A DNA stretch of 64,000 nt, from positions 5,984,001 through 6,048,000 of the forward strand of contig CP068257.2 of assembly GCA_009914755.4 (NCBI GenBank), given 5' to 3'. Both the position numbers and the translations under genes were made by a program. Within the stretch, counting starts at the first letter, position 1, and each line of letters opens with the position of its first letter. Origin of the DNA: the human T2T-CHM13v2.0 reference genome, Homo sapiens. This document shows, piece by piece, positions 38,625 to 64,000 of this stretch. The notes beneath the pieces were generated by a model. The model ran no database searches. It worked only from the letters and a program-made list of their open reading frames with translations, and was not told the origin of the DNA.

Positions 38625-38689
38625 ATTTCTTTCCACAGGAACTCACTATGTCACAAAGGCTGGAGTGCAGTGGCACAGTCTCAGCTGAC
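38625..38689 (-). mobile_element. Alu 3'-end fragment (antisense), class E-like
   Basis: 'atttctttccacaggaactcactatgtcacaaaggctggagtgcagtggcacagtctcagctgac'. Confidence 0.7.
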
Positions 38690-38836
38690 ATTTCTTTTCA
38701 CCATTCCATTGCATTCCATTCCATCCTATTCCATTCCACTCTATTTCACTCCACCCCACTCCACTCCATTCCTTTCCACTCCTTCCCTTTCCATTCCGCT
38801 CCACTCCACTCCATTCCACTCCGTTGCATTCCATTC

Positions 38837-38901
38837 ATTTCTTTCAACAGGATATCACTGTGTCACCCTGGCTGGAGTGAAGTGGCACAATCTCAGCTCA
38901 C
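38837..38901 (-). mobile_element. Alu 3'-end fragment (antisense), class D
   Basis: 'atttctttcaacaggatatcactgtgtcaccctggctggagtgaagtggcacaatctcagctcac', followed by 'gttacatgtcatctttccattgc'. Confidence 0.75.
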
Positions 38902-39333
38902 GTTACATGTCATCTTTCCATTGCGTTGCATTCTATTCCATTGCATTCCATTGCATTCCATTGCATTCCATTCCATTCCAGTCCTTTCCATTCTATTCCA
39001 TTCCATTAAATTCCATTCCATTCCATTCTGTTCCACTCCACTCCCCTGCACTGCACTACATTCCATTACACCCGATCCCATTCCACTCCATTCCAGCCCT
39101 CTCCACTCCACTGCACTCCACTCCACTCTATTCCAATCCATCCCATTCCATTCCGCTCCATACCACTGCACTCCACTCCACCCCACTCCACTCCTCTTCA
39201 TTCCATTCCATTCCATCTTTTTCCATTCCTTTCGATTGCACTGTACTCCACTTCACTCCACTCCACTCTGCTCCACTCCACTCCACTCCACTCCAAACCA
39301 TGCCATTCCATTCCACTGCATTCAATTCCATTC

Positions 39334-39397
39334 CTTTCTTTCGAGAGTATCTCACTCTGTCACCCAGCCTGGAGCACAGTGGCAGAATCTCAGCTCA
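39334..39397 (-). mobile_element. Alu 3'-end fragment (antisense), class A
   Basis: 'cctttctttcgagagtatctcactctgtcacccagcctggagcacagtggcagaatctcagctcac'. Confidence 0.75.
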
Positions 39398-39626
39398 CAT
39401 TTCATTTCACCATTCCATTGCATTCTACTCCATTAAATTCCAATGCACTCCACTCCACTCCAATCCATTCCACTCCACTCCACCCCAGTCCAGTCCACTC
39501 CAGTCCTTTTCTTTCCTTCCCATTCCATTCCACTCCTTTCTACTCCACTCCATTCCACTTCTTTCAATTCCATTACATTCCATTCCACTCCATTCCACTC
39601 CATTCCACTCCATTCCATTCCAGTAC

Positions 39627-39689
39627 TTTCTTTTGACTGTATCTCACTCTGTCACCCAGGCTAGTGTGCAGTGGCACAATCTCAGCCCA
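39627..39689 (-). mobile_element. Alu 3'-end fragment (antisense), class B-like
   Basis: 'tttcttttgactgtatctcactctgtcacccaggctagtgtgcagtggcacaatctcagccca'. Confidence 0.7.
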
Positions 39690-39804
39690 TAATTTCACCA
39701 TTCCATTCCATTCCATTCCACTGCACTCCACTCCACTCCACTCAATTCCACTTCACTCCACTCCTATCCATTCCATTCCATTCCAATCCCTTCCATTCCA
39801 CTCC

Positions 39805-39836
39805 TTTATTTCAACAGGGTCTCCATCTGTCACACA
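39805..39836 (-). mobile_element. Alu 3'-end fragment (antisense), class C, truncated at the HSat3/beta-satellite junction
   Basis: 'tttatttcaacagggtctccatctgtcacaca' is followed immediately by 'tgatcacccaggtgataggac', the first beta-satellite monomer. Confidence 0.7.
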
Positions 39837-42800
39837 TGATCACCCAGGTGATAGGACTTTTGTCTAGGCTCTGCCTACGGTGGCATTGTGACATATCTCT
39901 TCACTGATCACCCAGGTGATGTAACTCTTGTGTTGGATCTGCCTAGGGGGAATCATGACATATTTCTGCACTGATCACCCAGGTGTTGGGACTCTTGTCT
40001 AGGCTCTGTATATGGGGGATTTGTGACATATCCCTGCACTGATCACCCAGGTGATGTAACGCTTGACTAGGCTGTGAATTCTGGGGCATAGTGACATCAC
40101 TACATTGATCACTGAGATGACGTAACTCTTGTCCAGGCTCTAGCTATAGAAGGCCCAGTGACATATCTCTGCACTGATCATCTACTTGATGTAACTCTTG
40201 GTTACACATTGCCTGCAGAGGCATTGTGAAATATCTCTTTACTGATCAACCAGGTGATCTAAGTCTTGTCTAGGCTCTGCCTACAGGGGGTTTTGTGGCA
40301 TAACCCTGCACTGATCACCCAGGTGATGGGACTCTTCTCTAGGCTCTGCCTATTGGGGGCATTGTCACATATTTCTGCACTGATCACCCAGGTGATGGAC
40401 TCTTGTCTTGGATCTGCCCATGGGGGCATTGTGACATATCTCTGCACTGATCACCCAGGTGATGTAACTCTAGTCTAAGCTCTGCCTAAAGTGGCATTGT
40501 GACAGATCTCTGTACTGATCACTCAGCTGATGTAACTATTGTCTAGGCTCTGCTTAAAGGGGCCTTGTCACATATGTCTACACTGATCACCCAGGTGATG
40601 TAACTGTTGTCTAGGTTCTGCTTACAGAGGATATTGTAACATATCTCTGCACTGATAACGTAAGTGATGTAATACTTGTGTAGGCTCTGCCTACAGGGGC
40701 ATTTTGACATATCTCTGCACTGTTAACCGAGGTGATGTAATTCTTCTCTAGGCTGTGCCCACAGGGGCGTTGAGACATATCTCTGCACTGATCCCAAGGT
40801 GATCCAACTGTTGTCTGGGCTCTGCCTACTGGGGGCATTGTGACATATCTCTGCACTGATCTCCCACGTGATGTAACTTTTATCTAAGCTCGGGCTACAT
40901 GGCATTGTGACATATTACTGCACTGATCACCCAGGTGATATAACCCTTGTCTAGGCTCTGCCTACAGGGGGCTTGTGACACATCTCTGCACTGATCACCC
41001 AGGTGATGTATCTCTTGTCTAGGATCCGCCTACAGGTTGCTTTGTGACATATCCCTGCAATGATCACCCAGGTGATGTACCACTTGTCAAAGCTCTGACT
41101 ACAAGGGGTTTGCTATGTATCTCTGCACTGATAATATAGGTCATGTATCTCTTGTCTAGGCTCTACCTACAGTGGCATTGTGATATATCTCTGCACTGAT
41201 CACCCAGGTGATGGAATCCTTGTCTAGGCTCTGCCAAAATGGGGCATTGTGATATAACTCTGCACTGATCACCCAGGTGATGCGACTCTTGTCTAGGCTC
41301 TGCCTACAGGAGCATTGTGACATATCTCTGCATTGATCACGCAGGTGATGTAACTCTTGTCTATATCTGCCTACTGGTGGCATTGTGGCATATTTCTGCA
41401 CTGATCACCCAGGTGATGGACTCTTGTCTTGGATCTGCCTATGGGGGCATAATGACATATCTCAGCACTGATCACTCATATGATGTAACGCTTGTCTAAG
41501 CTGCGCCAAAAGGGGAATTGTGAAAGATATCTCCACTGATCACCCAGGTGATGTAACAATTTTCTGGTATTTGTCTACAGGGTGCTTTGTGACATATCTT
41601 TGCACTGATCACCCAAGAGATGTAACACTTGTCTAGGCTCGGCCTACAGGGGCTTTGTGACATATGTCTGTACTGATCACCCAGGTGAAGTAACTCTTGT
41701 CTAGGCTCCACCTACAGGGGGTATTGTGACGTATCTCTGCACTGATCACCCAGGTGATGTAACATTTATCTAGGCTCTTCCTACAGGGGCGTTTTGACAT
41801 AGCTCTGCACAGCTCACCTAGGTTATATAACTCTTGTCCACTCTCTGCCTACAGGGGCATTGTGAAACATCTCTGCACTGATCACCCAGGTGATGCGACT
41901 CTTCTCTATACTCTGCCTAGAAGGGGTTTGTGACATACCTCTGCACTGATAACCCAGGTGATGGAAGTCTTGTCTAGGCTCTGTCTATGGGGGCATTGTG
42001 TCAAATATCTGCACTGTTCACCCAGGTGATGTACCTCTTTTCTAGGCTCTGTCTACAGGGATTTTTGTGACATATCACTGCACTGATCACCTAGGCGATA
42101 TAAGCTTTGTATGGGCTTTGCCTACAGAAGGCTTTGTGACATATCTATGCACTGATCTCTGAGGTGACGCAACTCTTGTCTAGGCACTGCCTACAGGGTA
42201 CATTGGTACATAACTCTGCACTGAGCACCCAGGTGATGGACTCTTGTCTGAGATCTGCCTACAGGGACATTGTGATACATCTCTGAACTGATCAACCAAG
42301 TGATGAAACTCATGTCTAGGCTCTGCCTACAGGGGCTTTGTGACACATCTCTACACTGATCACCCTGGGGAAGGAACTCTTGTCTATGCTCTGCCTACAG
42401 GGGACATTGTGGCATATGTCTGCACTGATAACCCAGGTGATGCAACTCTTCTCAATGCTCTGCCTACATTTGGCATTGTGACATATCTCTGCACTGATCA
42501 CCCATTTGATGTAACTCTTTTCTAGTCTCTGCCTACAGAGGGCGTTGTGACATCACTCTGCACGGATCACACGGGTTATTTAACTCTTGTCTAGGCTCTG
42601 CCTACGTGGGCATTGTGACTTATCTCTGCACTGATCACCCAAGAGATGTGTCACTTGTCTAAGCTCTGTGTAGAGGGACATTGGGACATATCTCTGCCCT
42701 GATCGCTGAGGTGATGTAAAATTTGTCTAGGCTTGCCTACAGTGGGATTTATGACGTATCTCTGCACTGATCACCCAGGTGATGTAACTCTTGTCTAGGC

Positions 42801-43694
42801 TCTGCTTACAGGGAGTATTGTGAGATATCTCTGCACTGATCACACAGGTGATGAAACTCTCGTCTAGGCTCTGCCTACAGGGGCTTTGTGACACATCTCT
42901 GCACTGATCACCCTAGGGAGTGAACTCTTGTCTACGCTCTGCCTACAGGAATCTTTATGACTTATACCTGCACTGATAACCTAGGTGATGTAACACTTGT
43001 CTAGGCTCTGCCTACACGGGAATTCTCACATATCTCTGCACTGATCACCCAGGTGATGTAACTCCTGTCTAGTTTCAACCAACGGGAGCGTTTTGACATA
43101 TCTCTGCCCTGATGACCCAGGTGATGTAACCCTTGTCTAAGCTCTGCCTACAGGGGCATTGTATCAGATCTCTCCAATGCTCACCCAGGTGATGTAACAA
43201 TTGTCTGAGCTTTGCCTACAGGGGGCTTTGTGATATACATTTCCACTGATCAAACAGGTGATGTAACCCTTGTCAAGGTTCTGCTTACAGGGGATTTGTG
43301 ACATAGCTCTGCACTGATCACCCCAGGGAGGAAACACTTGTCTGCACTCTTCCTAAAGGAGGATTTACGACTTATCCCTGCACTGATCACTAGGTGATGT
43401 AACACTTGTCTAGGCTCTGTCTACATGGGAATTTTCACATATCTCTACACTAATCCCCTAAGTGATGTAACCCTTGTCTAGGTTCAGCCTACTGGGGATT
43501 TCTGACATACCTATGCACTGATCACTGAGGTGATGTAAATCATTTCCAGGCTTTTTGTACAGGGGACCTTGTGATATATCTCTGCACTGATCACCCAAAT
43601 GATGCAAATCGTCTCTAAGCTCTGCAGGGAGGGGGCATTGTGACATACTTCTGAACCAATCATCCAGGAGATGTAAGTATACTCCAGGCTTTGA
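39837..43694. repeat. Beta-satellite (Sau3A/BSR 68-69-bp monomer) array 1
   Basis: Monomers of the type 'ctgcactgatcacccaggtgatgtaactcttgtctaggctctgcctacaggggcattgtgacatatct' with one GATC each. Measured spacing of 'ctgatcaccc' is 69, 69 bp (39902, 39971, 40040). Collinear monomer-by-monomer with array 2. Confidence 0.9.
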
Positions 43695-44401
43695 CTTAAG
43701 AGCATCGCAAGGTGTTGGGAGAGCCTCAGCCGGAATTTCACAGACAGACAAGGACAAAGAGAGGCCAGCGGGCTCCCTTGCACATCAGCCAGGGTGCGCA
43801 ATGAGCGCAGGTTTAGCCAGGAGGCTGGCAAAGAGAGCTAGAAGTCTGCGTTCTGCCGCCAGGCGCTCCAAGGTGGTAGCTGGGAGGCTGCAGGGGCACG
43901 GGCGGGCCGACGACGGTGGCTCAGAGGCGCAGAGGAGGTGAGCCGCCGGAGGCGTGTCAGGCCTGGACGCTGCGTGGGCCCAGTGTTTCACGGGACGGGG
44001 GTCTCCACCCTGCCCAGGGGAGGACGCATTTTCCGTGGATGGGGGGTGGGGGTGTGGGGTGTTGGTCAGGCGGGGTTGGGGTGGTGGAAAGGCATGAGAT
44101 CTCTGCCTGGGCTGCTCCCAAAGCCCAGGCGGCTACCCCACAACACGCACTTGCACAGTAGGCGGCCCACCTGCTGGTACCTGGGCTGGCTCTGGGATCC
44201 CCGGGATGCCCAGGAAAGAATGGCTGTTCTCCACTGTGTGGAGCCTCTTACTGGGCCTAGACCTAGAAGGCAGGAATCCCAGGCCGGTCAGCCCGGTTGT
44301 GGGGGCGGGGGAAGACACAACCCTCCATAACCAGCCAGGTGTTCCCTGGGAAAGAGAGGCCACCGCCCTGCCCCGACCCGACCCCGCCCCAACCCCGCGT
44401 C

Positions 44402-45841
<1,440 letters not shown>

Positions 45842-46460
45842 TCATGAATGGCGGTGAACCCTGGGAATGCCCACCCCACCCCAGAAGGGTTCCAGGGTGT
45901 CGAGGCCTGCGGCCTGGGGGTGGTGGGGGGGGAGGGCGTGGTGATGTCGCTGGTGAGGCCAGAGACACGAAGAGGAAGGGGGTGAGGGGGAAGGGGTGAG
46001 GTGGGCGCATTTCACGGGCTGGCTCTCCGGACCTCTCCAAGAATCCCACGGGAAATGGAAGCCAATCTCTGGGCTCCCACGCGTCTTCAGCAGGGAGAAA
46101 CCGGCCTGGGAGGGTGGAGGGGAGTGTAAACCTTAACCCCCGTGGGAGTCTTGAGTGTTCCAGACCCTCTCTCCGTGAAGGAGGCAGTGCCTGTGGCAGT
46201 CGCCGTTGCCAGGACAGTCTCACACACCCAGGCGTGTGGCTCTCGTTAATTTCCATGTATGAGACCAGAGTGAGACCCCAGAGAGAAGGTGCCTCCCCAG
46301 CGTGATGACCTGACGATGGATTCCCATGTGCGGCAACATGGGGAGTCTGCAGTGTGGCCGGTTTGGAAACTGGCAAGGAGAGCAAAGGCACCATTCGGGT
46401 CTTCCACCCTTCCCTGCATGTTTCCGGGTGCCCGCAGAGCTCTGGGAGCAAACAGTCAGC

Positions 46461-49400
46461 ATGACACATCTCTGAACTGATCAACAAAGTGATGTAACTC
46501 TTGTCTAGGCTCTGCCTACAGGGGCTTTGTGACATATCTCTGCACTGATCACCCAGGTGATGAGACTTTTGTCTAGGCTCTGCCTATGGGGGCATTGTGA
46601 CATATCTCTACACTGAACACCCAGGTGATGTAACTCTTGTGTTGGATCTGCCTATGGGGTCATTGTGACATATTTCTGCACTGATCACCCAGGTGACGGG
46701 ACTCTTATCTAGGCTCTGTGTATGGGGGCTTTGTGACATCTCTGCATTGATCACCCAGGTGATGTAACGCTTGACTAGGCTCTGCCTACGGTTCATAGTC
46801 ACATATCACTGCATTGATCACCGAGGTGATGTAACTCTTGTCCATGCTCTGCCTATAGGGGTCCTTGTGACATATCTCTGCACTGATGATCTACGTGATG
46901 TAACTCTTGCTTATGCTCTGCCTGCAGGGGCATTGTGAAATATCTCTGCACTGATCACCCAGGTGATGGGACTCTTCTCTAGGCTCTGCCTAATGGGGGC
47001 ATTGTCACATATTTCTGCACTGATCACCCAGGTGATGGACTCTTGTCTTGGATTTGCCTATGGGTGCATTGTGACATATCTCTGCACTGATCACCCAGTT
47101 GATGTAACTCTGGTCTAAGCTCTGCCTAAAGGGGCATTGTGACAGATCTCTGCACTAATCACTCAGGTGATGTAACTATTGTCTGGGCTCTGTTTAAAGG
47201 GGCCTTGTCACATATCTCAGCACTGACCACCCAGGTGATGTAACTCTTGTCTAGCCTCTGCTTACAGAGGTTATTGTGACATATCTCTGCACTGGTCACT
47301 TAATTGATGTAACAATTGTGTAGGCTCTGCCTACAGAGGCATTTTGACATCTCTCTGCACTGTTAACCGAGGTGATGTAACTCTTGTCTAGGCTGTGCCC
47401 ACAGGAGTATTGAGGCATATCTCTGCACTGATCCCGAGGTGATCCAACTCTTGCCTGGTCTCTGCCTACTGGGGACATTGTGACATATCGCTGCACTGAT
47501 CTGCCAAGTGTGTAACTTTAGTCTAGCCTCTGGCTACACGGCATTGTGACAGATCTCTGCACTGCTGACCCAGGTGATATAACTCTCGTCTGGGCTCTGC
47601 CTACAGGGGGCTTTTGACATATCTCTGCACTGATCTCCCAGGTGATGTAACTCTTTTCTAGGATCTGCCTACAGGGTGCTTTGTGACATATCCCTACAAT
47701 GATCACCCAGGTGAGGTACCACTTGTCAAGGCTCTGCCTACAGGGACATTGCGATGTGTCTCTGCACTGATCACCTAGGTCATGTAACTCTTGTTTAGGC
47801 TCTGCCTACAGTGGCATTGTGACATATCTCAGCACTGATCATTCAAGTGATGTAACTATTGTCTAGGATCTGCCTAACGGGATTTTGTGACATAACTCTG
47901 CACTGATCATCCAGGTGATGGGACTTTTATCTAGGCTCTGCCTAAGGGGGCATTGTGACATATATCTGCACTGATCACACAGGTGACGGGCCCTTGTCTT
48001 AGATCTGTCTATGAGGGCATAGTGACATATCTCTGCACTGATCACTCATGTGATGTAACGGTTTTTAAGCTGCGCCTAAAGGGGAATTGTGACAGATATC
48101 TCCACTGCTCACCCAGGTTATGTAACAATTTTCTGGGATTTTTCTACAGGGGGCTTTGTGACATATCTCTGCACTGATCACCCAGGTGATGTAACTCTTG
48201 TCTAGGCTCCACCTACAGGGATTATTGTGACGTATCTCTGCTCTGATCACCCAGGTGATGTAACATTTATCTAGGCTCTCCCTACAGGGGCGTTTTGACA
48301 TAGCTGTGCACAGATCAACTAAGTTATGTAACTCTTGTTCACTCTCTGCCTACAGGGGGCATTGTGAAATATCTCTGCACTGATCACCCAGGTGATGGGA
48401 CTCTTCTCTATACTCTGCCTACGGGGGATTTGTGACATATCTCTGCACTGATCACCCAGGTAATGGAAGTCTTGTCTAGGCTCTGTCTATCTTGACATTG
48501 TATCAAATATCTGCACTGATCACCCAGGTGATGTAACTCTTTCCTAGGCTCGGTCTACAGTGATTTTTTTGACATATCACTGCACTGATCGCCTAGGTGA
48601 TGTAAGCCTTGTATGGGCTTTGCCTACAGAAGGCTTTGTGACATATCTCTGCACTGATCTCTGAGGTGATGCAACTCTTGTCTAGGCACTGCCTTCAGGG
48701 TACATTGGTACATATCTCTACACTGATCACCCAGGTGATGGACTGTTGTCTTAGATCTGCCTACATGGACATTGTGACCCATCTCTGACCTGATCAACCA
48801 AGTGATGAAACTCTTGTCTAGGCTCTGCGTACAGGGGCTTTGTGACACATCTCTACACTGATCACCCTGGGGAGGAAACTCTTGGCTACGCTCTGCCTAC
48901 AGGAGGCTTTATGCCTTATACCTGCACTGATAACCTAGGTGATGTAACACTTGTCTAGACTCTGCCTTCACCGGAATTCTCACATATCTCTGCACTGATC
49001 ACACAAGTGATGTAACTCCTATCTAGGTTCAGCCTTCAGGAGCGTTTTGACATATCTCTGCACTGATCACCCAGGTGATGTAACCCTTGTCTAAGCTCTG
49101 CCTACAGGGGCATTGTGACAGATCTCTCCACTGCTCACCCAGGTGATGTAACAACTGTCTGGGCTTTGCCTACAGGGGGCTTTGTGATATACATTTCCAC
49201 TGATCAAACAGGTGATGTAACACTTGTCAAGGTTCTGCTTACAGGGGCTTTGTGACATATCTCTGCTCTGATCAACCTAGGGAGGAAACACTTGACTGCA
49301 CTCTGCATAGAGGGGACTTTACGACTTATCACTGCGCTGATTACAAGGTGATGTAACACTTGTCTAGGCTCTGTCTACACGTTAATTTTCATATATCTCT

Positions 49401-49649
49401 ACACTGATCACCTAAGTGATGTAACCCTTGTCTAGGTTCAGCCTTTTGGGGATTTCTGACATACCTATGCACAGATCACCGAGGTGATGTAAATCATTTC
49501 CAGGCTTTTTGTACAGGGGACATTGTGATATATCTCTGCACTGATCACCGAAATGATGCAAATCTTCTCTAGGCTCCGCAGGGAGGGGGCATTGTGACAT
49601 ATTTCTGAACTGATCATCCAGGAGATGTAACTATTCTCCAGGCTTTGAC
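46461..49649. repeat. Beta-satellite array 2 (higher-order block between D4Z4-like cores)
   Basis: Same 68-69-bp monomer family. The array starts 'acacatctctgaactgatcaacaaagtgatgtaactcttgtctagg' exactly as arrays 3 and 4 do. Array 1 positions 40500-41230 align monomer-for-monomer with 47130-47860. Confidence 0.9.
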
Positions 49650-50356
49650 TAAAGAGCGTCGCAAGGTGTTGGGAGAGCCTCAGCTGGAATTTCACCAACG
49701 GACAAGGGCACAGAGAGGTCAGCCGTCTCCCTTGCATGTCAGCCGGGGTGCGCAAAGAGCACAGGTCTAGCCAGGAGCATGGCAAAGAGAGCTAGATGTC
49801 TGTGTTCCGCTGCCAGGCGCTCCATGGTGGCTGCTGAGAGGCTGCAGGGTCACGGGCTTGCTGGCGATGGTGGCGCGGATGTGCAGAGGTGGCGAGCCTT
49901 TGGAGGGGTGTCAGGCCTGGATGCTGCGCGGGCCCGGTGTTTCGCGGGATAGGGGTCTCCACACAGCCCAGGGGAGGACACATATTCCGGGGTTGGGGGG
50001 TGGGTGTGGGGAGGTGGTGGTCAGGTGGGGGTGTGGTGGTGGAAAGGCATGAGAGCTCTGCCCGGGCTGCTCCCACAGCCCAGGCGACTGCCTACAAACA
50101 CGCACGTGCACAGTAGGCAGCCCACCTGCTGGTACCTGGTCCGGCTCTGGAATCCCCGTGATGCCCAGGATAGAATGGCAGTTCTCCGCTGTGTGGAGTC
50201 TCTCACGGGGCCTAGACCTAGAAGGCAGGAATCCCAGGCCGGTCAGCCTGGTGGAGGGGGCGGGGGACTAAACGCCCCTCCATAACCAGACAGGTGTTAA
50301 CCGCGAAAGAGAGGCCACCGCCCTGCCCCTACCCGACCCCGTCTCAACCCTGCGTC

Positions 50357-51769
<1,413 letters not shown>

Positions 51770-52425
51770 GCCCGCAGGCAGGCAGGTTCCACAACTTCAT
51801 GAATGGTGGTGAGCCCTGGGACAGCCCGCCCCACCCCGGAAGGGTCCCAGGACTTCGTGGCCTGCGGCAGGGTGGTGGTGGGGAGGGCGGGGGAGGGCAT
51901 GTGGATGGTGGTGGATGGGTCGGATAGACGAAGAGGAAGGGGGCGAGGGGGAAGTGGTGAAGGGGGCACGTTTCGGGGCCTGGCTCTCTGAACCTCTCCA
52001 GGAATCCGGTGGGAACTGGAAGCCGCTCTCTTGGCTCCCACTTGTCTTCAGCAGGGAGAAACCGGCCTGGGAGTGTTTAGGGGAGTGTTGAACTGAACCT
52101 CCGTGGGAGTCTTGAGTGTTCCAGGCCCTCTCTCCATGAAGGAGTCTGTGCCTGTGGGTGTCGGCGTTGCCGGGACAGTCTCACTGACGCAGGCGTGTGG
52201 CTCTCATTCATTTCCACGTAGGAGACCAGAGTGAGACCCCAGAGAGAAGATGCCTCCCCGGCGTGATGGCCTGACGATGGATTCCCGTGTGGGGCAACAT
52301 GGGGACTCTGCAGTGTGGCCAGTTTGGAAACTGGTAAGGAGAGCGAAGGCACCATGCCGGTCTTCCACACTTCCCTGCATGTTTCCGGGTGCCCGCAGAG
52401 CTCCAGGAGCAAACAGTCAGCATGA

Positions 52426-55400
52426 CACACCTCTGAACTGATCAACAAAGTGATGTAACTCTTGTCTAGGCTCTGCCTACAGGGGCTTTGTGACATATCT
52501 CTGCACTGATCACCCAGGTGATGGAACTTTTGTCTGGGCTCTGCCTATGGGGACATTGTGACATATCTCTACACTGATCACCCAGGTGATGTAACTACTG
52601 TGTTGGATCTGCCTATGGGGACATTGTGACATATTTCTTCACTGATCACCCACGTGATGGGACCCTTGTCTAGGCTCTGTGTATGGGGGCATTGTGACAT
52701 ATCTCTGCACAGATCACCCAGGTGATGTAACGCTTTACTAGCCTCTGCCTACGGGGCATAGTGACATATCACTGCATTGATCACCGAGGTGATATAACTC
52801 TTCTCTAGAATCTGACTACAGAGTGCTTTGTGACATATCCCTGCAATGATCACCCAGGTGATATACCACTTGTCAAGGCTCTGCCTACAGGGGCATTGCG
52901 ATGTATCTCTGCACTGATCACCTAGGTCATGTAACTCTTGTCTAGGCTCTGCCTACAGTGGCATTGTGACATATCTCTGCACTGATCACCCAGGTGATGT
53001 AACTCTTTTCCAGGCTCTGAGTATAGGGGGCCTTGTGACATATCTCTGCACTGATCATCTAGGTAAAGTAACTCTTGTCTACCCTCTGCCCAAAGGGGGC
53101 ATTGTGAAATATCTCTGCACTGATCACACAGGTGAAGGGACTCTTCTCTAGGCTCTGCCTACTGGGGGCATTCTCACATATTTCTGAACTGATCACCCAG
53201 GTGACGGACTCTTGTCTTGGATTTGCCTATGGGGGCATTGTGACATATCTCCGCACTGATCACCCAGGTGTTGTAACTCTGGTCTAATCTCTGACTAAAG
53301 GGGCATTGTGACAGATCTCTGCATTGATCACTCAGGTGATGTAACTATTGTCTAGGCTGTGCTTAAAGGGGCCTTGTCACATATCTCTGCACTGATCACC
53401 CAGGTGATGTAACTGTTGCCTAGGCTCTGCTTACAGGGCGTATTTTGACATATCTCTGCACTGATCACCTAAGTGATGTAACACTTGTGTAGGCTCTTCC
53501 TACAGGGGCATTTTGACATATCTCTGCACTGTTAACCGAGGTAATGTAACTCTTGTCTAGGCTGTGCCCACTGGGGGATTGACATATATCTCTGCACTGA
53601 TCCTGAAGTGATCCAACTCTTGCCTGGTCTCTGCCCACTGGGGACATTGTGACATATCTCTGCACTGATCTCCCAGGAGCTATTGCTTTATTCTAGGCTT
53701 TGGCTACACGGCACTGTCACATATCACTGCACTGATCACCCAGATGATATAACTCTTGTCTAGGCTCTGCCAACAGGGGGCTTTTGACATATCTCTGCAC
53801 TTATCACCCAGGTGATATAACTATACTCTAGGATCTGACTACAGGGTGCTTTGTGACATATCCCTGCAATGATCACCCAGGTGATATACCACTTGTCAAG
53901 GCTCTGCCTACAAGGACATTGCGATGTATCTCTGCACTGATCACCTAGGTCATGTAACTATTGTCTAGGCTCTGCCCACACTTGAATTCTCACATATGTC
54001 TGCACTGATTACCCAGTTGATGTAACTCCTGTCTAGGTTCAGCCTACAGGAGCGTTTTGACATATCTCTGCACTGATCATCCCGGTTTTGGGGCATTTTT
54101 CTAGGCTCTGCCTAAGGGGGCATTGTGACATATCTCTGCACTGATCACCCAGGTGATGTTACTGTTGTATAAGCCCTGCCTACAGGGGAATTTTGAGAGA
54201 TATCGCCACTGATCCCCCAACTGATGTAACTATTGTCTAGGCTTTGCCTACAGGGGGCTTTGTGACATAATTTTGCACTGATCACGCAGGTGATGTAACT
54301 CATCTAAGTTCTGCCTACAGGAGCTTTGTCACATATCTCTGCACTGATCACTTTGGTTATGTAACACTTTTGTAAGCACTGCCTAAAGGGAATTTTCACA
54401 AATCTCTGCACTGATCACCTAGGTGATGTAACTCTTGTCTACCATCTGCCCAAAGGGGGCATTATGAAATATCTCTGCACTGATCACTTTGGTGATGTAA
54501 CACTTTTGTAAGCACTGCCTAAAGGGAATTTTCACAAATCTCTGCACTGATCACCTAGGTGATGTAACTCTTGTCTACTATCTGCCCAAAGGGGGCATAT
54601 GAAATATCTCTGCACTGATCACCCAGTTGATTCAACTCTAGTCTAGGATCTGCCTACAGAGGTGTTTTCACATATCCTTGAAGTGATGACAAACGTGATG
54701 TAACTCATGCCTAGACTTTACCTACAGGGGACATTGTGACATATCTCTGCACTGATCACCCAGGAGATGCAACTCTTCTCTCTGCTCTGCCTACAGGGGA
54801 CATTGTGACGTATCTTTGCACTGATAAACCAGGTGGTGTAACACTGGACGAAGCTCAGCCTAAAGGGGCATTGTGAAAAATCTCTGCACTGATCACTCAG
54901 GTGATGTAACTATTGTCTAGGCTATGCTTAAAGGGGCCTTGTCACATATCTCTGCACTGATCACCCAGGTGATGTAACTCTTGTCTAGGCTCTGCTTACA
55001 GGATGTATTGTGACATATCTCTGCAATGATCACCTAAGTGATGTAACACTTGTGTAGGCTCTGCCTACAGGGACATTTTGACATATCTCTGCAGTGTTAA
55101 CCGAGGTGATGTAACCCTTCTCTAGGTTGTGTCCACAGGGGGATTGAGGCATATCTCTGCACTGATTCCTAGGTGATCCAACACTTGCCTGGTATCTGCC
55201 TACTGGGGACATTGTGATATCTCTCTGCACTGATCTCTCAGGTGTTGTAACTTTAGTCTAGGCTCTGCCTACAGGGCATTGTGACATATCACTGCACTTA
55301 TCACCCAGGTGATATAACTCTTGGTTAGGCTCTGCCTACAGTGGCATTGTGACATATCTCTGCACTGATCATCCAGGTGATGTAACTCTTTTCTAGGATC

Positions 55401-58400
55401 TGCCTACAGGGTGCTTTGTGACATAACCCTGCAATGATCACCCAGGTGATGTACCACTTGTCAAGGCTCTGCCTACAGGGACATTGCTATGTATCTCTGC
55501 ACTGATCACCTAGGTCATGTAACTCTTGTTTAGGCTCTGCCTACAGTGGCATTGTGACATATCTCTACAATGATCATCCAAGTGATGTAACCCTTGTCTA
55601 GGATCTGCCTAAAGGGACTTTGTGACATAACTCTGCACTGATCATCCAGGTGATGGGGCTTTTGTCTAGGCTCTGCCTAAGGGGGCATTGTGACATACTT
55701 CTGCACTGATCACCCAGGTGAGGGAATCTTCTCTTGGATCTGCCTATGGGGGCATTGTGACATAAATCTGCACTGATCACCCAGGGGATGTAACTGTTGT
55801 ATAAGCTCAGCCTACAGGGGAATTGTGAAAGATCTCGCCACTGATCACCCAAGTGATGTAACTATTGTCTAGGCTTTGCCTACAGGGGGTTTTGTGACAT
55901 ACCTTTGCACTGATCACCCAGGAGATGTAACTCATCTAAGTTCTACCTACAGGAGCTTTGTGACATATCTCTGCACTGATCACTTAGGTGATGTAACACT
56001 TTTATAAGCTCTGCCTACAGGGAATTTTGACAAATCCCTGCACGGATCACCTAGGTGATGTAAATCTTGTCTACCCTCTCGCCCAAAGGGGGTATTGTGA
56101 AATACCTCTGCACTGATCACCCAGGTGATTCAACTGTTATCTAGGATCTGCCTACAGGGGGTATTGTGAAATATATCTGCACTGATCAACTAGGTGATGT
56201 AACCCTTATCTATGTGATGCCTACAGGGGCCTTTTCACATATCCCTGACCTGATGACAAAGGTGATGTAACTCTTGCCTAGGCTTTGCCAACAGGGGACA
56301 TTGTGACATATCTCTGCACTGATCACCCAGGTGATGCAACTCTTCTCTATGCTCTGCCTACAGGGGGCATTGTGACATATCTCTGCACTGATCACCCAGG
56401 TGATGTAACTCTTTTCTAGTCTCTGCCTACAGAGGGCGTTGTGACATCACTCTGCACGGATCACCCGGGTTATGTAACCCTTGTCTAGGCTCTGCCCATG
56501 GGGGCATTGTGACTTACCTCTGCACTCATCACCCAGGAGATGTGACTCTTTTCTAAGCTGTGCCTGGAGGGACATTGGGACATATCTCTGCACTGACCGG
56601 TGAGGTGATGTAAAACTTGTCTAGGCTTTGCCTACAGTGGGATTTATGACATATCTCTGCACTGATCACCCAGGTGATGTAACTCTTGTCTTAGCTCTGC
56701 TTACACGGGGTATTGTGAGATATCTCTGCACTGATCACCCAGGTGATGTAACTCTTGTCTAGGCTCTGTCTACAGGGGCATTTTAACATATCACTGCACT
56801 GATCACCGAGATGATGTAACCCTTGTATAGGCTTCGCCGACAGGGGGCATTGAGACATATCTCTGCCCTGATCACCGAGGTGATGCGACTCTTGTCTGGG
56901 ATCTGCTTCCAGGGGGCATTGTGACATATCTCTGCCCTGATCAACCAGGTGATGTAACTCTTGTCTAGGCTCTGCCTACTGGAGACATTGTGACATATCT
57001 CCGCACTTATCACCCAGGTGATATCACTTTTCTCAAGGATATGGCTACACGGACATTGTGACATGTCACTGCACTGATCTCACAGCTGATGTAACTCTTA
57101 TCTAGACTCTGGCTACATGGGGTTTGTGACACATCTCTGCACTGATCACCCATGTGTTGTAACCCTTGTCTAGGCTCTGCCAAAAAGGGGCATTGTGACA
57201 TAACTCTGCACTGATCCCCCAGGTGATGGGACTCTTGTCTAGGCTCTGCCTACATGGGCATTGTGACATATCTCTGCAGTGATCACGCAGGTTATGTAAC
57301 TCTTGTTTATATCTGCCTACTGGCGGCATTGTGACATATTTCTGCACTGATCACCCAGGTGATGGACTCTTGTCTTGGATCTGCCTATGGGCCATAGTGA
57401 CATATCTCTGCACTGATCACTCATGTGGTATAACACTTATGTAAACTGCGCCTAAATGGGAATTGTGACAGATATCTCCAGTGATCACCCAGGTGATGTA
57501 ACAATTTTCTGGGATTTGTCTCCAGGGGGCTTTGTGACATATCTTTGCACTGATCACCCAGGAGATGTAATTCTTGTCTAGGCTCGGCCTACAGGGGCCT
57601 TGTGTCATATTTCTGCACTGATCATCCAGGTGATATAACTCTTGTTTAGGCTCTGCCTACAGGGGATTTTGTCATATTTCTGCACTGATCACCCACGTGA
57701 TGTAACTCTTTTTTAGGCTCTGCCTACAGGGGCTTTGTGATATATCTCTGCACTGATCACCCAGGTGATGTAACTCTTGTCTAGGCTCCACCTACAAGGG
57801 GTATTGTGACGTATCTCTGCACTGATCACTCAGGTGATGTAACTGTTGTCTAGGCTCCACCTACAGGGTTTATTGTGACGTCTCTATGCACTGATCACTC
57901 AGGTGATGTAACGTTTATCCAGGCTCTGCCTACTGGGGCGTTTTGACATAGCTCTGCACAGATCTCCTAGGTTATGTAACTCTTGTCCACTCTCTGCCTA
58001 CAGTGGGCATTGTGAAATATCTCTGCACTGATCACCCAGGTGATGGGACTCTTCTCTATACTCTGCCTAGAGGGGGATTTGTGACATATCTGTGCACTGA
58101 TCACACAGGTGATGGAAGTCTTGTCTAGGCTCTGTCTATGGGGACATTGTGTCAAATATCTGCTCTGATCACCCATGTGATGTAACTCTTGTCTAGGCTC
58201 TGTCTACAGGGATTTTTGTGACATGTCACTGTGCTGATCACCTAGGTGATGTAAGCCTTGTATGGGCGTTGCCTACAGAAGGCTTTGTGACATATCTCTT
58301 CACTGATCTCTGAGGTCATGCAACTCTTGTCTAGGCACTGCCTACAGAGGACATTGGTACATAAACTGCACTGATCACCCAGGTGAGGACTCTTGTCTTA

Positions 58401-59294
58401 GATCTGCCTACATGGACATTGTGACACATCTCTGAACTGATCAACCAAGTGATGAAACTCTTGTCTAGTTTCTGCCTACAGGGGCTTTGTGACACATCTC
58501 TGCACTGATCACCCTGGGGAGGGAACTTTTGTCTACGCTCTGCCTACAGGAGGCTTTATGACTTATGCCTGCACTGATAACCTAGGTGATGTAACACTTG
58601 TCTAGGCTCTGACTACATGGGAATTCTCACATATCTCTGCACTGATCACCCGGGTGATGTAACTCCTGTCTAGGTTCAGCCTACAGGAGCGTTTGGACAT
58701 ATCTCTGCACTGATCACCCAGGTGATGTAACCCTTGTCTAAGCTCTGCCTACAGGGTCATTGTGACAGATCTCTCCACTGCTCACCCAGGTGATGTAACA
58801 ATTGTCCAGGCTTGCCCTACAGGGGCCTTTGTGATATACATTTGCACTGATCAAACAGGTGATGTAACCCTTGTCAAGGTTCTGCTTACAGGGGCTTTGT
58901 GACATATCTCTGCACTGAACACCCCAGGGAGGAAACACTTGTCTACACTCTGCCTATAGGAGGCTTTATGACTTATCCCTTCACTGATCCCTAGGTGATG
59001 TAACACTTGTCTAGGCTCTGTCTACACGGGAATTTTCACATACCTCTACACTGATAACCTAAGTGATGTAACCCTTGTCTAGGTTCAGCCTACTGGGGAT
59101 TTCTGACATACCTATGCACTGATCCCCGAGGTGATGTAAATCATTTCCAGGCTTTTTGTACAGGGGACATTGTGATATATCTCTGCACTGATCACCCAAA
59201 TGATGCAAATCTTCTCTAGGCTCCACAGGAAGGGGGCATTGTGACATATTTCTGAACTGATCATCCAGGAGATGTAACTATTCTCCAGGCTTTG
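52426..59294. repeat. Beta-satellite array 3 (expanded to 6.9 kb; contains a recent ~136-bp tandem duplication at 54343-54478 / 54479-54612)
   Basis: Same monomer family, with start and end blocks matching arrays 1 and 2. The internal part is expanded. The two adjacent ~136-bp segments 'ctgatcactttggttatgtaacacttttgtaagcactgcctaaagggaattttcacaaatctctgcactgatcacctaggtgatgtaactcttgtctac..' are nearly identical. Confidence 0.9.
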
Positions 59295-60000
59295 ACTAAA
59301 GAGCATCGGAAGGTATTGGGAGAGCCTCAGCCGGAATTTCACGGACGGACGAGGGCACAGAGGCCAGCATGCTCCCTTGTACGTCAGCCACAGTGCACAA
59401 TGAGCGCAGGTCTAGCCAGGAGCCCGGCAAAGAGAGCTAGAGGTCTGCGTTCTGCCACCAGGCGCTCCATGGTGGCAGCTGGGAGGCTGCAGGGGCACCA
59501 GAGGGCCAGGGACCGTGGCGCGGAGGTGCAGAGGAGGCGAGCCGCCAGAGGGGTGTCAGGCCCGGACGCTGAGCCGGCCCAGTGTTTCGCGAGACGGGGG
59601 TCTCCACCCAGCCCAGGGGAGGACGCATTTTCCCGGGTTGGTGTGTGGGGATGGGGAGAGTGTGGTCCGGCCGGGTGGGATGGTGGAATGGCATGAGAGC
59701 TCTGCCTGGGCTGCTCCCACAGCCCAGGCGGCTGCCCGCAAACCCACGCATGTGCAGTAGGCAGCCCACCTGCTGGTACCTGGGCCGGCTTTTGATCCCC
59801 GGGATGCCGAGGAAAGAATGGCAGTTCTCCACTGGGTGGAGCGTCTCACCAGGCCTAGACCTAGAAGGCTGGAATCCCATGCCGGTCAGCTCGGTGGAGG
59901 GGTCGAGGGGAAGACGTGCCCCTCCATAGCCAGCCAGGTGTTCCCCGCGAAAGGGAGGCCACCGCCCTGCTCTGACCCGACCCCTTCCCAACCCAGTGAC

Positions 60001-61305
<1,305 letters not shown>

Positions 61306-61401
61306 TCAGAGAGAGTCCGGTAGGCTCCCGTGCACCTCAGCTGGACTGTGCACTGCGGCAAGTGCAGCCAGGAGACCAGCCGGGACAACAAGCCAGCAGT
61401 T

Positions 61402-61410
61402 CTTATAAAG
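61402..61410 (-). promoter_or_regulatory. TATA-like box 'TTTATAAG' upstream of the DUX4L ATG (copy 3)
   Basis: rc of 'cttataaag' in 'gttcttataaaggtctgcaggcaggcagg', about 140 bp upstream of the ATG at 61266. Confidence 0.45.
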
Positions 61411-62065
61411 GTCTGCAGGCAGGCAGGCTCCACCCCCTGATGAATGGCGGTGAGTCCTGGGACAGACCGCCCCACCCCGGAAGGGTCCCAGGGCGTCCAG
61501 GCCTGTGGCCGGGAGGTGGTGGGGTTGGGGGGAGGGCGTGGTGATGGTGTTGGTGGGGCCGGAGAGACGAAGAGGAAGGGGGCGAGGGGAAAGGGGTGAG
61601 GGGGGAGAGTTTCAGGGGCTGGCTCTCCGGACCACTCCAGGAATCCCGCGGGAACTGGAAGCCACTCTCTGGGCTCCCACATGTCTTCAGCAGGGAGAAA
61701 CCGGCCTGGGAGGGTGGAGGGGAGTGTGGAACTGAACCTCCGTGGGAGTCTTGAGTGTTCCAGGCCCTGTCTCCATGAAGTAGTCAGTGCCTGTGTGTGT
61801 CGCCTTTGCCGGGACAGTCTCACAGGCGCAGGCCTGTGACTCTCGTTCATTTCCACGTAGGAGACCAGAGCGAGACCCCAGAGAGAAGACGCCTCCCCGG
61901 CGTGATGGCCTGACGATGGATTCCCGTGCGTGGCATCATGGGGAGTCTGCAGTGTGGCCGGGTTGGAAACTGGCAAGGAGAGCGAAGTCACCATGTCGGT
62001 CTTCTATCCTTCCCTGCATGTTTCCGGGTGCCCGCAGAGCTCCGGGAGCAAACAGTCAGCATGAC

Positions 62066-64000
62066 ACATCTCTGAACTGATCAACAAAGTGATGTAACCC
62101 TTGTCTAGGCTCTGCTACAGGGGCTTTGTGATATATCTCTGCACTGATCACCCAGGTGATGGGACTTTTGTCTAGGCTCTGCCTATGGGGGCATTGTGAC
62201 ATATCTCTACACTGATCACCCAGGTGATGTAACTCTTGTGTTGGATCTGCCTATGGGGACATTGTGACATATTTCTGCACTGATCACCCAGGTGATGGGA
62301 CTCTTGTCTATGCTCTGTGTATGGGGGCTTTGTGACATATCTCTGCACTGATCACCCAGGTTATGTAACGCTTGACTAGGCTCTGCCTATGGGGCATAGT
62401 GACATATCACTGCATTGATCACGAAGGTGATGAAACTCTTGTCCAAGCTCTGCCTATAGGGGGCCTTGTGACATATCTCTGCACTGATCATCTAGGTGAT
62501 GTAACGCTTGCTTACGCTCTGCCTGCAGGGGCATTGTGAAATATCTCTGCACTGATCACCCAGGTGATGGGACTCTTCTCTAGGCTCTGCCTACTGGGGG
62601 CATAGTCACATATTTCTGCACTGATCACCCAGGTGACCGACTCTTGTCTTGGATTTGCCTATGGGGGCATTGTGAAATATCTCTGCACTGATAACCCAGG
62701 AGATGTAACCCTGGTCTAAGCTCTGCCTAAAGGGGCATTGTGAAAGATGTCTGCACTGATCACTCAGGTGATGTAAGTATTGTCTAGGTTCTGCTTAAAG
62801 GGGCCTTGTCACATATCTCTGCAGTGATCACCCAGGTGGTGAAACTCTTGTCTAGGCTCTGCTAACAGGGGCTATTGTGACATATCTCTGCACTGATCAC
62901 CTGAGTGATGTAACACTTGTGTAGGCTCTGCCTACAGGGGCATTTTGACATATCTCGGCACTGTTAACCAAGGTGATGTAACTCTTGTCTAGGCTGTGGC
63001 CACAGGGGGATTGAGACATATCTCTGCACTGATCCCTAGGTGATCCAACTCTTGCCTGGTCTATGCCTACTGCGGACATTGTGACATATCTCTGCACTGA
63101 TCTCCCAGGTGCTGTAACTTTAGTCTAGGCTCTGGCTACACGGCATTGTGACATATCACTGCACTGAGCACCCAGGTGATATAACTCTTTTCTAGGCTCT
63201 GCCTACAGGAGGCTTATGACATATCTCTGCACTGATCATCCAGGTGATATAACTCTTCTCTAGCATCTGCCTACAGGGTGCTTTGTCACATATCCCTGCA
63301 ATGATCACCCTGGGGATATACCAATTGTCCAGGCTCTGCCTACAGGGGCATTGCGATGTATCTCTGCACTGATCACCTAGGTCATGTAACTCTTGTTTAG
63401 GCTCTGCCTACAGTGGCATTGTGACATATCTCTGGACTGATCACCCAGGTGATGTAACTCTTTTCTAGGATCTGCCTACAGTTGGCTTTGTGACATATCC
63501 CTGCAATGATCACCCAGGTGATGTACCACTTGTCAAGGCTCTGCCTACAGGGACATTGCGATGTATCTCTGCACTGATCACCTAGGTCATGTAACCCTTG
63601 TCTAGGCTCTGCCTGCAGTGGCATTGTGACATATCTCTGCACTGATCATCCAAGTGATGTAACACTTGTCTAGGATCTGCCTAAAGTGACTTTGTGACAT
63701 AATGCTGTACTGATCATCCAGGTGATGGGGCTTTTGTCTAGGCTCTGCTTAAGGGGGCATTGTGACATATTTCTGCACTGATCACCCAGGTGATGCAACA
63801 CTTTTCTAGTCTCTGCCTACAGAGGGCTTTGTGACATTACTCTGCATGAACACCCAGGTGATGGGACATTTGTATACGCTCCGCCTATGGGGGCATTGTG
63901 ACATATCTCTACACGGATCACCCAGGTGATGTAACTCTTGTGTTGGATCTGCCTATGGGGGCATTGTGACATATTTCTGCACTGATCACCCAGGTGAAGG
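62066..64000. repeat. Beta-satellite array 4 (start of the next composite unit; runs off the window)
   Basis: Begins 'acacatctctgaactgatcaacaaagtgatgtaacccttgtctagg', identical in layout to the starts of arrays 2 and 3. Confidence 0.9.

What the first reader, a model, noticed from the sequence alone, without database searches (positions are those of the whole stretch)
39837..64000. Tandem composite array: beta-satellite higher-order block plus 2.77-kb D4Z4-like/DUX4L core, at least 3.3 units, minus orientation
The distal 24 kb is neither a simple satellite nor single-copy DNA. A 2.77-kb GC-rich core with promoter, DUX4-like ORF and 3' region recurs at 43695, 49650 and 59295. Each core is preceded by a collinear beta-satellite block of variable length (3.9, 3.2, 6.9 and more than 1.9 kb). 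In the 3.3-kb D4Z4 unit at 4q35, a short beta-satellite-like LSau segment sits in the same relative position. Here that segment appears to have expanded into kb-scale beta-satellite. Unit lengths are 6.6, 6.0 and 9.6 kb, which points to unequal crossing-over inside the satellite portion. Such beta-satellite/D4Z4-like arrays are known from acrocentric p-arms, 1q12 and Y heterochromatin. The exact layout and copy structure here are worth placing on a T2T assembly.
Basis: partly seen in the sequence, partly recalled or inferred. Interest (0 to 1): 0.7.

Follow-up and report, generated by a model that had tools for sequence, protein, structure and literature searches.

The report
Decayed beta-satellite/D4Z4-like (LSAU-BSAT) composite array
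The last 24 kb of the window is a known type of human heterochromatic repeat, beta-satellite blocks alternating with dead copies of the DUX4 (D4Z4) element, so it is real and correctly spotted but ordinary.

Summary
From 39837 to the window end, four 68-bp beta-satellite blocks (3.84, 3.19, 6.88 and more than 1.94 kb) alternate with three 2.77-kb GC-rich cores at 43677, 49652 and 59299. Each core carries a full-length DUX4 homologue on the minus strand.

- The "ORF" is closed in all three copies by 4-7 stops or by frameshifts, and the changes are neutral across codon positions.
- The beta-satellite has no short higher-order repeat. The only higher-order unit is the composite itself.

Cores are 85.5-86% identical to each other and 91-92% identical to a consensus of 52 independent copies. 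That consensus still encodes an intact 422-aa protein. The three copies share almost no derived changes, so this is an old array that was never homogenised.

The "LSau expanded into beta-satellite" idea is not supported. No beta-satellite homology lies inside the core. The 3' edge matches the 4qA end of D4Z4 (KpnI site, then pLAM, then beta-satellite), and the poly(A) hexamer reads GTCACA instead of ATTAAA.

This is the LSAU-BSAT/LSAU-BETA composite already catalogued in T2T-CHM13. Novelty: already known. Interest: low.

The parts
39837..43676 (+). Beta-satellite block B1: 56 monomers of about 68 bp, abutting HSat3 on its left. Its last 2-3 monomers are the pLAM-like, more divergent monomers that belong to core 1's 3' end.
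   Evidence: TRF period 68. Monomer segmentation. Collinear with B2 in three runs at offsets 0, -2 and -10 monomers, identity 0.90-0.92. Junction sequence.
43633..43657 (-). Homologue of the DUX4 exon-3 (pLAM) polyadenylation site for core 1. The hexamer reads GTCACA (43644..43639) instead of ATTAAA.
   Evidence: Comparison with the published PMO-PAS oligo GGGCATTTTAATATATCTCTGAACT, described as 766 bp downstream of the stop (PMC7767109). Here the site is 758 bp downstream of the stop.
43677..46461 (-). Core 1: a D4Z4-like element of 2,785 bp, 64.8% GC, CpG o/e 0.52.
   Evidence: blastn 85.7-86.0% to cores 2 and 3. Composition. 92.4% identical to the family consensus.
44402..45670 (-). DUX4 pseudogene in core 1: 422 codons plus the stop, with 7 premature stops at codons 21, 111, 130, 200, 284, 312 and 407.
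   Evidence: tblastn 79.7% amino-acid identity over DUX4 residues 1-424. Codon table.
44176..44181 (.). [quoted passage not shown] The same site is at 50131-50136 in core 2 and at 59775-59780 in core 3.
   Evidence: It is at the same position in the family consensus.
45807..45811 (-). TATAA box 141 bp upstream of the ATG in core 1, with a GC box (GGGGTGGGGYGG) further upstream. Core 3 has TATAA at 61403-61407. In core 2 the box is mutated to TGAAC (51762-51766).
   Evidence: Alignment of the three promoter regions. The family consensus has TATAA at -142.
46462..49651 (+). Beta-satellite block B2: 46 monomers.
   Evidence: Monomers 0-19 match B4 monomers 0-19 at 0.927. Monomers 25-45 match B3 monomers 79-99 at 0.923.
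49652..52422 (-). Core 2: a D4Z4-like element of 2,771 bp. The DUX4 pseudogene spans 50357-51625 with 4 premature stops (codons 87, 130, 241, 383) and an Asn51-to-Lys change in homeodomain 1. The PAS homologue is at 49587-49611.
   Evidence: (PDB 5z6z, E = 3e-52).
52423..59298 (+). Beta-satellite block B3: 100 monomers. It is a mosaic with an internal duplication at a 23-monomer lag.
   Evidence: self run at offset 23, identity 0.885.
59299..62061 (-). Core 3: a D4Z4-like element of 2,763 bp. The DUX4 pseudogene spans 60001-61266 with three 1-bp deletions (near 60907, 60620 and 60426) and premature stops. The PAS homologue is at 59234-59258.
   Evidence: An independent contig, L001, matches it at 99.47% over 1,887 bp.
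62062..64000 (+). Beta-satellite block B4: 28 monomers, cut by the window end, so the array continues beyond the window.

Best explanation
This is the proximal edge of an LSAU-BSAT (LSAU-BETA, 'beta-composite') satellite array in human heterochromatin, abutting an HSat3 array.

The repeat unit is a composite. It consists of a 5'-truncated D4Z4 element followed by its pLAM-like 3' end, which runs into 68-bp beta-satellite. This is the same arrangement as the distal end of the 4qA D4Z4 array.

Inferred history:
1. A founder unit with an open 422-codon DUX4-like frame, a TATAA promoter and position-specific beta-satellite monomers was amplified in tandem.
2. Out-of-register exchange between beta-satellite monomers changed spacer lengths in whole monomers, giving 46, 56 and 100 monomers.
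3. Homogenisation then stopped, and each unit decayed independently and neutrally. The decay was mainly loss of CpG and other GC-to-AT changes, as expected for methylated heterochromatin.

The copies here are non-coding relics. They have no open frame and no ATTAAA poly(A) signal, and one has lost its TATAA box.

Shown directly: the anatomy, the homology, the closed frames, the neutral substitution pattern, the star-like divergence and the family-wide junction. Inferred: the methylation, the order of events and the exchange mechanism.
For: Structure.

DUX4 homology on the minus strand:
- Pfam Homeodomain, E = 2e-12.
- PDB DUX4 5z6z, E = 3e-52.
- Full-length tblastn at about 80% amino-acid identity.

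Pseudogene status:
- Stops and frameshifts, mostly private to one copy.
- Differences are spread evenly over codon positions, p = 0.57-0.84.

D4Z4/pLAM landmarks:
- KpnI site 221 bp after the stop in all three cores.
- PAS homologue 756-759 bp after the stop, against a published 766 bp, reading GTCACA.

Composite unit:
- Both junctions are identical in all three units. The left flank ends at monomer position about 44 and the right flank resumes at position 53.
- The exact 38-nt right junction occurs in more than 120 metagenome contigs, some labelled human gut or skin.
- Core-adjacent monomers are 0.88-1.00 identical between units, against a 0.77 background, and 93-95% identical family-wide.

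Founder and decay:
- The consensus of 52 independent copies is 2,791 bp, 70% GC, 8.6% CpG, with an intact 422-aa ORF. Sixteen copies still have that ORF.
- The window cores are 91.4-92.4% identical to the consensus.
- Of their derived sites, 502 are private, 45 are shared by two cores and 3 by all three.
- They have lost 40-44% of the consensus CpGs, and 35% of all changes are CpG C>T.

Literature:
- LSAU-BETA composite on 16 chromosomes, with 80-95% identity within arrays at centromere transition regions.
- Beta-composite arrays.
- 319 copies of a 5'-truncated, roughly 3.1-kb D4Z4-pLAM form in LSAU-BSAT regions, with CpG density about 5.4%. The cores here have 5.1-5.9%.
Against: - No human reference genome or RepeatMasker was available, so the LSAU/BSR labels and the chromosome are not confirmed directly.
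- No D4Z4 nucleotide reference was available. The extent of the 5' truncation (791 bp retained upstream of the ATG) is compared with the literature only by length.
- The pLAM match rests on two published oligos and on distances.
- Methylation is inferred from CpG loss, not measured.
- Two premature stops are shared by conflicting pairs of cores (codon 130 in c1+c2, codon 241 in c2+c3). This needs homoplasy or a little gene conversion.
- Human origin rests on L001 (99.47% identical to core 3) and on contig labels, not on a placed alignment.
Confidence: 0.9

Rival explanations
1. One reading: the short LSau segment inside the 3.3-kb D4Z4 unit is beta-satellite-like and expanded in place into kb-scale beta-satellite, turning a D4Z4 array into this composite.
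For: The beta-satellite does lie between successive DUX4-bearing elements, roughly where the first part of the next D4Z4 unit would be in a pure array. The spacers do vary in length.
Against: A beta-satellite profile HMM finds nothing significant inside any core; the best internal hits have E = 0.28-7. The literature describes LSau as a GC-rich repeat, and LSau and beta-satellite are used as separate probes. The 3' junction is collinear with the 4qA terminal unit-pLAM-beta-satellite arrangement, including the poly(A)-site homologue at the expected distance. The core interrupts a beta-satellite monomer nearly in phase, at positions 44 and 53. That looks like a D4Z4-derived segment set in satellite, not satellite growing out of D4Z4.
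Confidence: 0.05
2. Three independent insertions (or gene conversions) of D4Z4-like elements into a pre-existing beta-satellite array, rather than tandem duplication of one composite unit.
For: The three cores share almost no derived changes and are no closer to each other than to family members elsewhere. This is what independent arrivals from a master copy would also give.
Against: Both junctions are base-for-base homologous in all three units and in more than 120 other copies. The flanking 5-12 monomers on each side are positionally matched at 0.88-1.00. Longer collinear runs extend through the spacers. Independent insertions would not carry kilobases of the same flanking monomers.
Confidence: 0.04
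3. The cores are live DUX4 paralogues (DUX4L genes) that can still produce a double-homeodomain protein or a regulatory RNA.
For: The ATG, the stop codon, the TATAA box (c1, c3) and the GC box are at conserved positions. Sixteen of 52 family copies elsewhere keep the full 422-aa frame. The literature reports transcription from dispersed 3.3-kb elements.
Against: In these three copies there are 4-7 premature stops or three frameshifts. Asn51 of homeodomain 1 is changed to Lys in c2. Substitutions are equal across codon positions. There is no ATTAAA signal. Rfam finds no RNA family in 39-64 kb.
Confidence: 0.02
4. Assembly artefact: a mis-joined or collapsed satellite region that only looks like a variable-length array.
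For: Satellite regions are error-prone, and I could not check read support.
Against: The units differ by 14%, which makes them easy to assemble uniquely. An independent short-read metagenome contig reproduces core 3 at 99.47% with no gaps, against 85% to the other two cores. Collinear but shifted monomer runs are what real unequal exchange produces.
Confidence: 0.02

Closest known systems
LSAU-BSAT / LSAU-BETA composite repeat of T2T-CHM13 ('beta-composite arrays'; Hoyt et al., Altemose et al.)
   Same: 68-bp beta-satellite interspersed with LSau/D4Z4-like GC-rich elements, in tandem arrays next to other pericentromeric satellites. Within-array identity here (85.5-86% for cores, about 93% for matching monomers) falls in the 80-95% range reported for arrays in centromere transition regions.
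   Different: Nothing categorical. This stretch is at the diverged end of the reported range. It is also the very edge of an array, where it meets HSat3.
5'-truncated D4Z4-pLAM copies (about 3.1 kb, 319 copies in CHM13; Butterfield et al. 2023, PMC10620044)
   Same: A DUX4-bearing element that lacks the 5' part of the KpnI unit and runs through a pLAM-like 3' end into beta-satellite. CpG density is 5.1-5.9% here, against about 5.4% reported. It is embedded in LSAU-BSAT regions.
   Different: Those copies are reported as uniformly about 90% identical to 4qA, and many keep full-length ORFs. The three copies here are each a further 8% or so from the family consensus, and none keeps the ORF.
D4Z4 macrosatellite at 4q35/10q26 and its 4qA distal end
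   Same: Double-homeobox retrogene, KpnI landmark, promoter with a GC box, and at the 4qA end the order D4Z4 - pLAM (poly(A) site) - 68-bp beta-satellite.
   Different: D4Z4 is a head-to-tail 3.3-kb array without satellite spacers. It is about 71% GC with a CpG/GpC ratio of 0.8 and carries an intact DUX4 ORF. Its units are nearly identical to each other, which I state from general knowledge and did not test. Here the cores are 2.77 kb, 64-65% GC with CpG o/e 0.5, 86% identical, and separated by 3-7 kb of satellite. The promoter box is TATAA instead of TACAA, and the poly(A) hexamer is GTCACA instead of ATTAAA.
Dispersed 3.3-kb DUX elements with the HEFT1/DUX1-type promoter
   Same: A TATAA box, rather than the D4Z4 TACAA, upstream of a double-homeobox frame.
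   Different: DUX1-type copies were described as transcribed and protein-producing. These copies cannot encode the protein.

Membership tests
LSAU-BSAT / beta-composite array | Arrays of about 68-bp beta-satellite (Sau3A) monomers | tested here: met
   TRF period 68 in four blocks. The consensus contains the GATC site. 230 monomers of 66-69 bp were segmented.
LSAU-BSAT / beta-composite array | GC-rich LSau/D4Z4-like elements interspersed in the satellite, repeated in tandem | tested here: met
   Three 2.77-kb cores of 64-65% GC with DUX4 homology, all in the same orientation, with the same junctions.
LSAU-BSAT / beta-composite array | Within-array identity of 80-95% when located in centromere transition regions | tested here: met
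   Cores are 85.5-86.0% identical. The array is adjacent to 39.8 kb of HSat3.
LSAU-BSAT / beta-composite array | RepeatMasker/T2T annotation as LSAU plus BSR/Beta at a placed genomic locus | not testable with these tools
5'-truncated D4Z4-pLAM copy | pLAM-like 3' end that leads into beta-satellite | tested here: met
   Homologues of the published PAS and cleavage-site oligos lie 756-759 bp after the stop, against a published 766 bp. They sit in the first satellite-like monomers.
5'-truncated D4Z4-pLAM copy | [quoted passage not shown] | tested here: inconclusive
   The core of 2.77 kb plus 0.2-0.3 kb of pLAM-like monomers comes to about 3.0-3.1 kb, and only 791 bp lie upstream of the ATG. No D4Z4 nucleotide reference was available to align.
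5'-truncated D4Z4-pLAM copy | Reduced CpG density of about 5.4% | tested here: met
   151/2785, 143/2791 and 165/2783, which is 5.4%, 5.1% and 5.9%.
D4Z4 macrosatellite (4q35/10q26 type) | Head-to-tail 3.3-kb KpnI units without intervening satellite | tested here: not met
   The cores are 2.77 kb and are separated by 3.2-6.9 kb of beta-satellite. Each has one KpnI site, so KpnI fragments would be 5.95 and 9.64 kb.
D4Z4 macrosatellite (4q35/10q26 type) | Intact DUX4 open reading frame (424 aa, two homeodomains) | tested here: not met
   The homology is full length, but there are 7, 4 and at least 2 premature stops, plus three frameshifts in c3.
D4Z4 macrosatellite (4q35/10q26 type) | About 71% GC, CpG-island-like (CpG/GpC ratio 0.8) | tested here: not met
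   64-65% GC and CpG o/e 0.50-0.56.
Functional DUX4 transcription unit (4qA-permissive) | ATTAAA polyadenylation signal in pLAM exon 3 | tested here: not met
   The hexamer reads GTCACA in all three units.
Beta-satellite higher-order repeat (HOR) array | Monomer identity peaks at a fixed multi-monomer period within the array | tested here: not met
   The lag profile is flat at 0.74-0.79 for lags 1-39 in B1-B3. The only exception is a weak lag-23 duplication in B3.

The most novel reading that the evidence does not exclude
The three units may be a 'fossil' of the founding amplification of the whole LSAU-BSAT family. They share only 3 derived sites out of about 580 relative to a consensus that still encodes a protein. 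If so, this array edge next to HSat3 stopped being homogenised at about the time the family arose. Its decay, which is unusually rich in C>A transversions, would then be a clean record of the mutation process in constitutive heterochromatin.
Probability: 0.2. Interest if true: 0.3.

Novelty: already known. Interest (0 to 1): 0.12.

Why it matters
It matters little as a discovery. Beta-satellite/LSau (D4Z4-like) composites were described in the 1980s-90s and are fully catalogued in T2T-CHM13.

Its practical relevance is as background for FSHD work. Hundreds of such divergent DUX4 copies capture probes, guide RNAs and reads aimed at 4q35 (PMC10620044). Knowing that a given copy is dead (no ORF, no poly(A) signal) helps to discount it.

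The unit-by-unit dissection also gives a small, clean example of how array edges escape homogenisation and decay by CpG loss.

Tried and rejected
- Short HOR in the beta-satellite: the lag profiles are flat, so this was rejected.
- Beta-satellite homology inside the cores, to test the LSau idea: none was found.
- Rfam at gathering thresholds over 39-64 kb: no hits, and no miRNA family such as the MIR8078 mentioned by Hoyt et al..
- Selection on the DUX4 frame: codon-position counts are uniform, so this was rejected.
- Selection or conversion as the reason that flanking satellite (93-99%) is better conserved than the cores (86%): probably not needed. From the counts I estimated per-base change rates by hand. 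These predict about 90% identity for 47%-GC, CpG-poor satellite and about 87% for the cores. This was a rough calculation, not a tool result.
- Chromosome assignment: not possible, because no human assembly is searchable here.
- The PMO-PAS oligo search at up to 3 mismatches hit only generic monomers. The true homologues have 4-5 mismatches and were located by alignment.
Residues 4-149 agree with PDB 5z6z. The independently derived family consensus ORF looks very similar to it by eye, but I did not align the two.
- My first MAFFT run of 55 copies timed out and was repeated with faster settings.

Full report
**1. What is in the sequence**

The window has two parts. Positions 5-39622 are a (CATTC)n HSat3 array. 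From 39837 to the end, GC skew drops to zero and the composition alternates between about 47% GC and 64-67% GC.

TRF finds 68-bp tandem arrays at 39837-43676 (B1), 46462-49651 (B2), 52423-59298 (B3) and 62062-63997 (B4, cut by the window end). The three GC-rich intervals are c1 43677-46461, c2 49652-52422 and c3 59299-62061. They align to each other over their whole 2.77 kb at 85.5-86.0% identity.

Offsets are 5,954, 9,647 and 15,601 bp. Unit lengths are 6,625, 5,961 and 9,639 bp.

**2. The cores are D4Z4-type elements carrying dead DUX4 copies**

- Minus-strand translations hit Pfam Homeodomain (E = 2e-12).
- They hit solved DUX4 structures (5z6z, E = 3e-52).
- tblastn with DUX4 aligns residues 1-424 in every core at about 80% amino-acid identity.

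The ATG and the TAG stop are in the same alignment columns in all three cores. None of the frames is open:
- c1 has 7 premature stops.
- c2 has 4 premature stops, plus Lys in place of the invariant Asn51 of homeodomain 1.
- c3 has three 1-bp deletions plus stops.

Differences between copies are spread evenly over codon positions (p = 0.57-0.84). The coding part is no better conserved than the non-coding parts of the core, about 86% everywhere. These are neutrally evolving pseudogenes, so 'DUX4-like ORF' is an overstatement. Rfam finds nothing in the region.

**3. Where the satellite joins the core**

A profile built from the 230 monomers finds no significant beta-satellite inside any core. In plus-strand terms the left flank ends at monomer position about 44 and the right flank resumes at position 53. 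The same holds in all three units.

On the gene's 3' side:
- A KpnI site lies exactly 221 bp after the stop in all three cores.
[quoted passage not shown] Its homologue here lies 756-759 bp after the stop, inside the first, more divergent satellite-like monomers.
- In that homologue ATTAAA is replaced by GTCACA.

The order KpnI, then partial unit/pLAM, then poly(A) site, then beta-satellite is the one described for the distal 4qA end.

On the 5' side only 791 bp precede the ATG. They include a GC box and a TATAA box at -141 in c1 and c3; the box is mutated in c2.

This matches the form Butterfield et al. found to be the commonest divergent D4Z4 in CHM13. That form is a 5'-truncated, roughly 3.1-kb D4Z4-pLAM sequence with 319 copies. 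It lies in LSAU-BSAT regions of the acrocentrics and pericentric chr1 and has a CpG density of about 5.4%. The cores here have 5.1-5.9%.

The literature also treats LSau as a GC-rich repeat distinct from beta-satellite.

**4. The satellite blocks**

Within a block, monomer identity is flat at about 0.77 at all lags, so there is no classical HOR. Between blocks there are collinear runs of 12-21 monomers at 0.88-0.93 identity, separated by shifts of whole monomers:
- B1 equals B2 plus 2 and plus 8 monomers.
- B2 monomers 0-19 match B4 monomers 0-19 (0.927).
- B2 monomers 25-45 match the last 21 monomers of B3 (0.923).
- B3 contains an internal duplication at a 23-monomer lag.

The 5-12 monomers next to each core are 0.88-1.00 identical between units.

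The satellite (about 93% in matching monomers) is better conserved than the cores (86%). I estimated by hand, from the counts, that base composition accounts for most of this. C/G bases, and especially CpGs, change about twice as fast as A/T bases.

**5. Relation to the rest of the family**

The exact 38-nt right junction occurs in more than 120 metagenome contigs. Several contigs are labelled human gut or skin metagenome, which indicates host DNA.

From 52 full-length copies I built a consensus of 2,791 bp with 70% GC, 8.6% CpG and TATAA at -142. It has an intact 422-aa DUX4-like ORF, and 16 of the copies keep that ORF. Most copies are 96-99% identical to the consensus.

The window cores are 91.4-92.4% identical to the consensus (211-237 substitutions each). 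Of their derived sites, 502 are private, 45 are shared by two cores and only 3 by all three. They have lost 40-44% of the consensus CpGs, and 35% of all changes are CpG C>T.

The founder of this array was therefore close to the family consensus and probably still coding. The three units have decayed independently since then, without homogenisation.

Other observations on family members:
- L029 has two cores 4,548 bp apart, both 97-98% identical to the consensus. Unit length therefore varies family-wide.
- L001 reproduces c3 at 99.47% over 1,887 bp, against 85% to c1 and c2. This argues that the copy is real and present in another individual.

**6. Comparison with what is known**

- Hoyt et al. 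describe the LSAU-BETA composite on 16 chromosomes. Arrays in centromere transition regions share 80-95% identity, and interstitial arrays share nearly 100%.
- Older work by Agresti, Meneveri, Lyle/Hewitt and Winokur, cited in those papers, established the dispersed 3.3-kb family on acrocentric short arms.

Everything seen here fits that class. It fails the tests for the 4q35-type D4Z4 array, for a functional DUX4 unit and for a beta-satellite HOR (see the membership table).

**7. Verdict**

The feature is already known and non-functional, and interest is low. Not settled here: the chromosome, direct RepeatMasker labels, methylation, and a nucleotide alignment to the 4qA reference.

Noticed in passing
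window 30000-39836: The HSat3 array changes character at about 30 kb. GC rises from 0.38 to 0.47 and CACTC-type pentamers become common. From 30583 onward it carries 25 antisense fragments of an Alu 3' end (TTTTGACAGGxTCTCACTCTGTCACCCAGGCT...) at irregular spacing of 0.2-1.2 kb. The last fragment (39814-39836) directly abuts the first beta-satellite monomer at 39837. It is a composite HSat3 subtype that I could not name.
   Followed up: partly
window 39837-40320 (B1 monomers 0-6): The array's left edge falls almost exactly where a core would end. B1 monomers 7-21 match B2 and B4 monomers 7-21 in the same register (0.88-0.99). B1 monomers 0-6 match only weakly, and best with a one-monomer shift. 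The break with HSat3 therefore lies about one monomer from the canonical core/satellite junction.
   Followed up: partly
cores 43677-46461, 49652-52422, 59299-62061: The substitution spectrum relative to the family consensus is unusually rich in transversions. Non-CpG C>A (129) is at least as frequent as non-CpG C>T (111), while T>C is rare (28). From general knowledge, not checked here, this differs from the usual human germline spectrum. It may reflect the mutation process in late-replicating heterochromatin.
   Followed up: partly
L074 (metagenome contig, 2,186 bp): L074 is 93.1% identical to core 2 but only 85-86% to cores 1 and 3. A paralogue of the c2 lineage therefore exists elsewhere, which suggests a segmental duplication of part of this array after its units had diverged.
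   Followed up: no
protein hits (e.g. P0030): A DUX4-like C-terminal fragment is deposited as 'hypothetical protein Kyoto166A_1130 [Helicobacter pylori]'. More than 380 similar 'proteins' sit in metagenome gene catalogues. This is human repeat DNA contaminating microbial assemblies and protein databases.
   Followed up: no
codons 130 and 241 of the DUX4 pseudogenes (45283/51238 and 50905/60548): Two premature stops are shared by conflicting pairs of units: TAG at codon 130 in c1+c2 and TAA at codon 241 in c2+c3. A single tree cannot explain both. Parallel mutation or short gene-conversion tracts between neighbouring units could.
   Followed up: no
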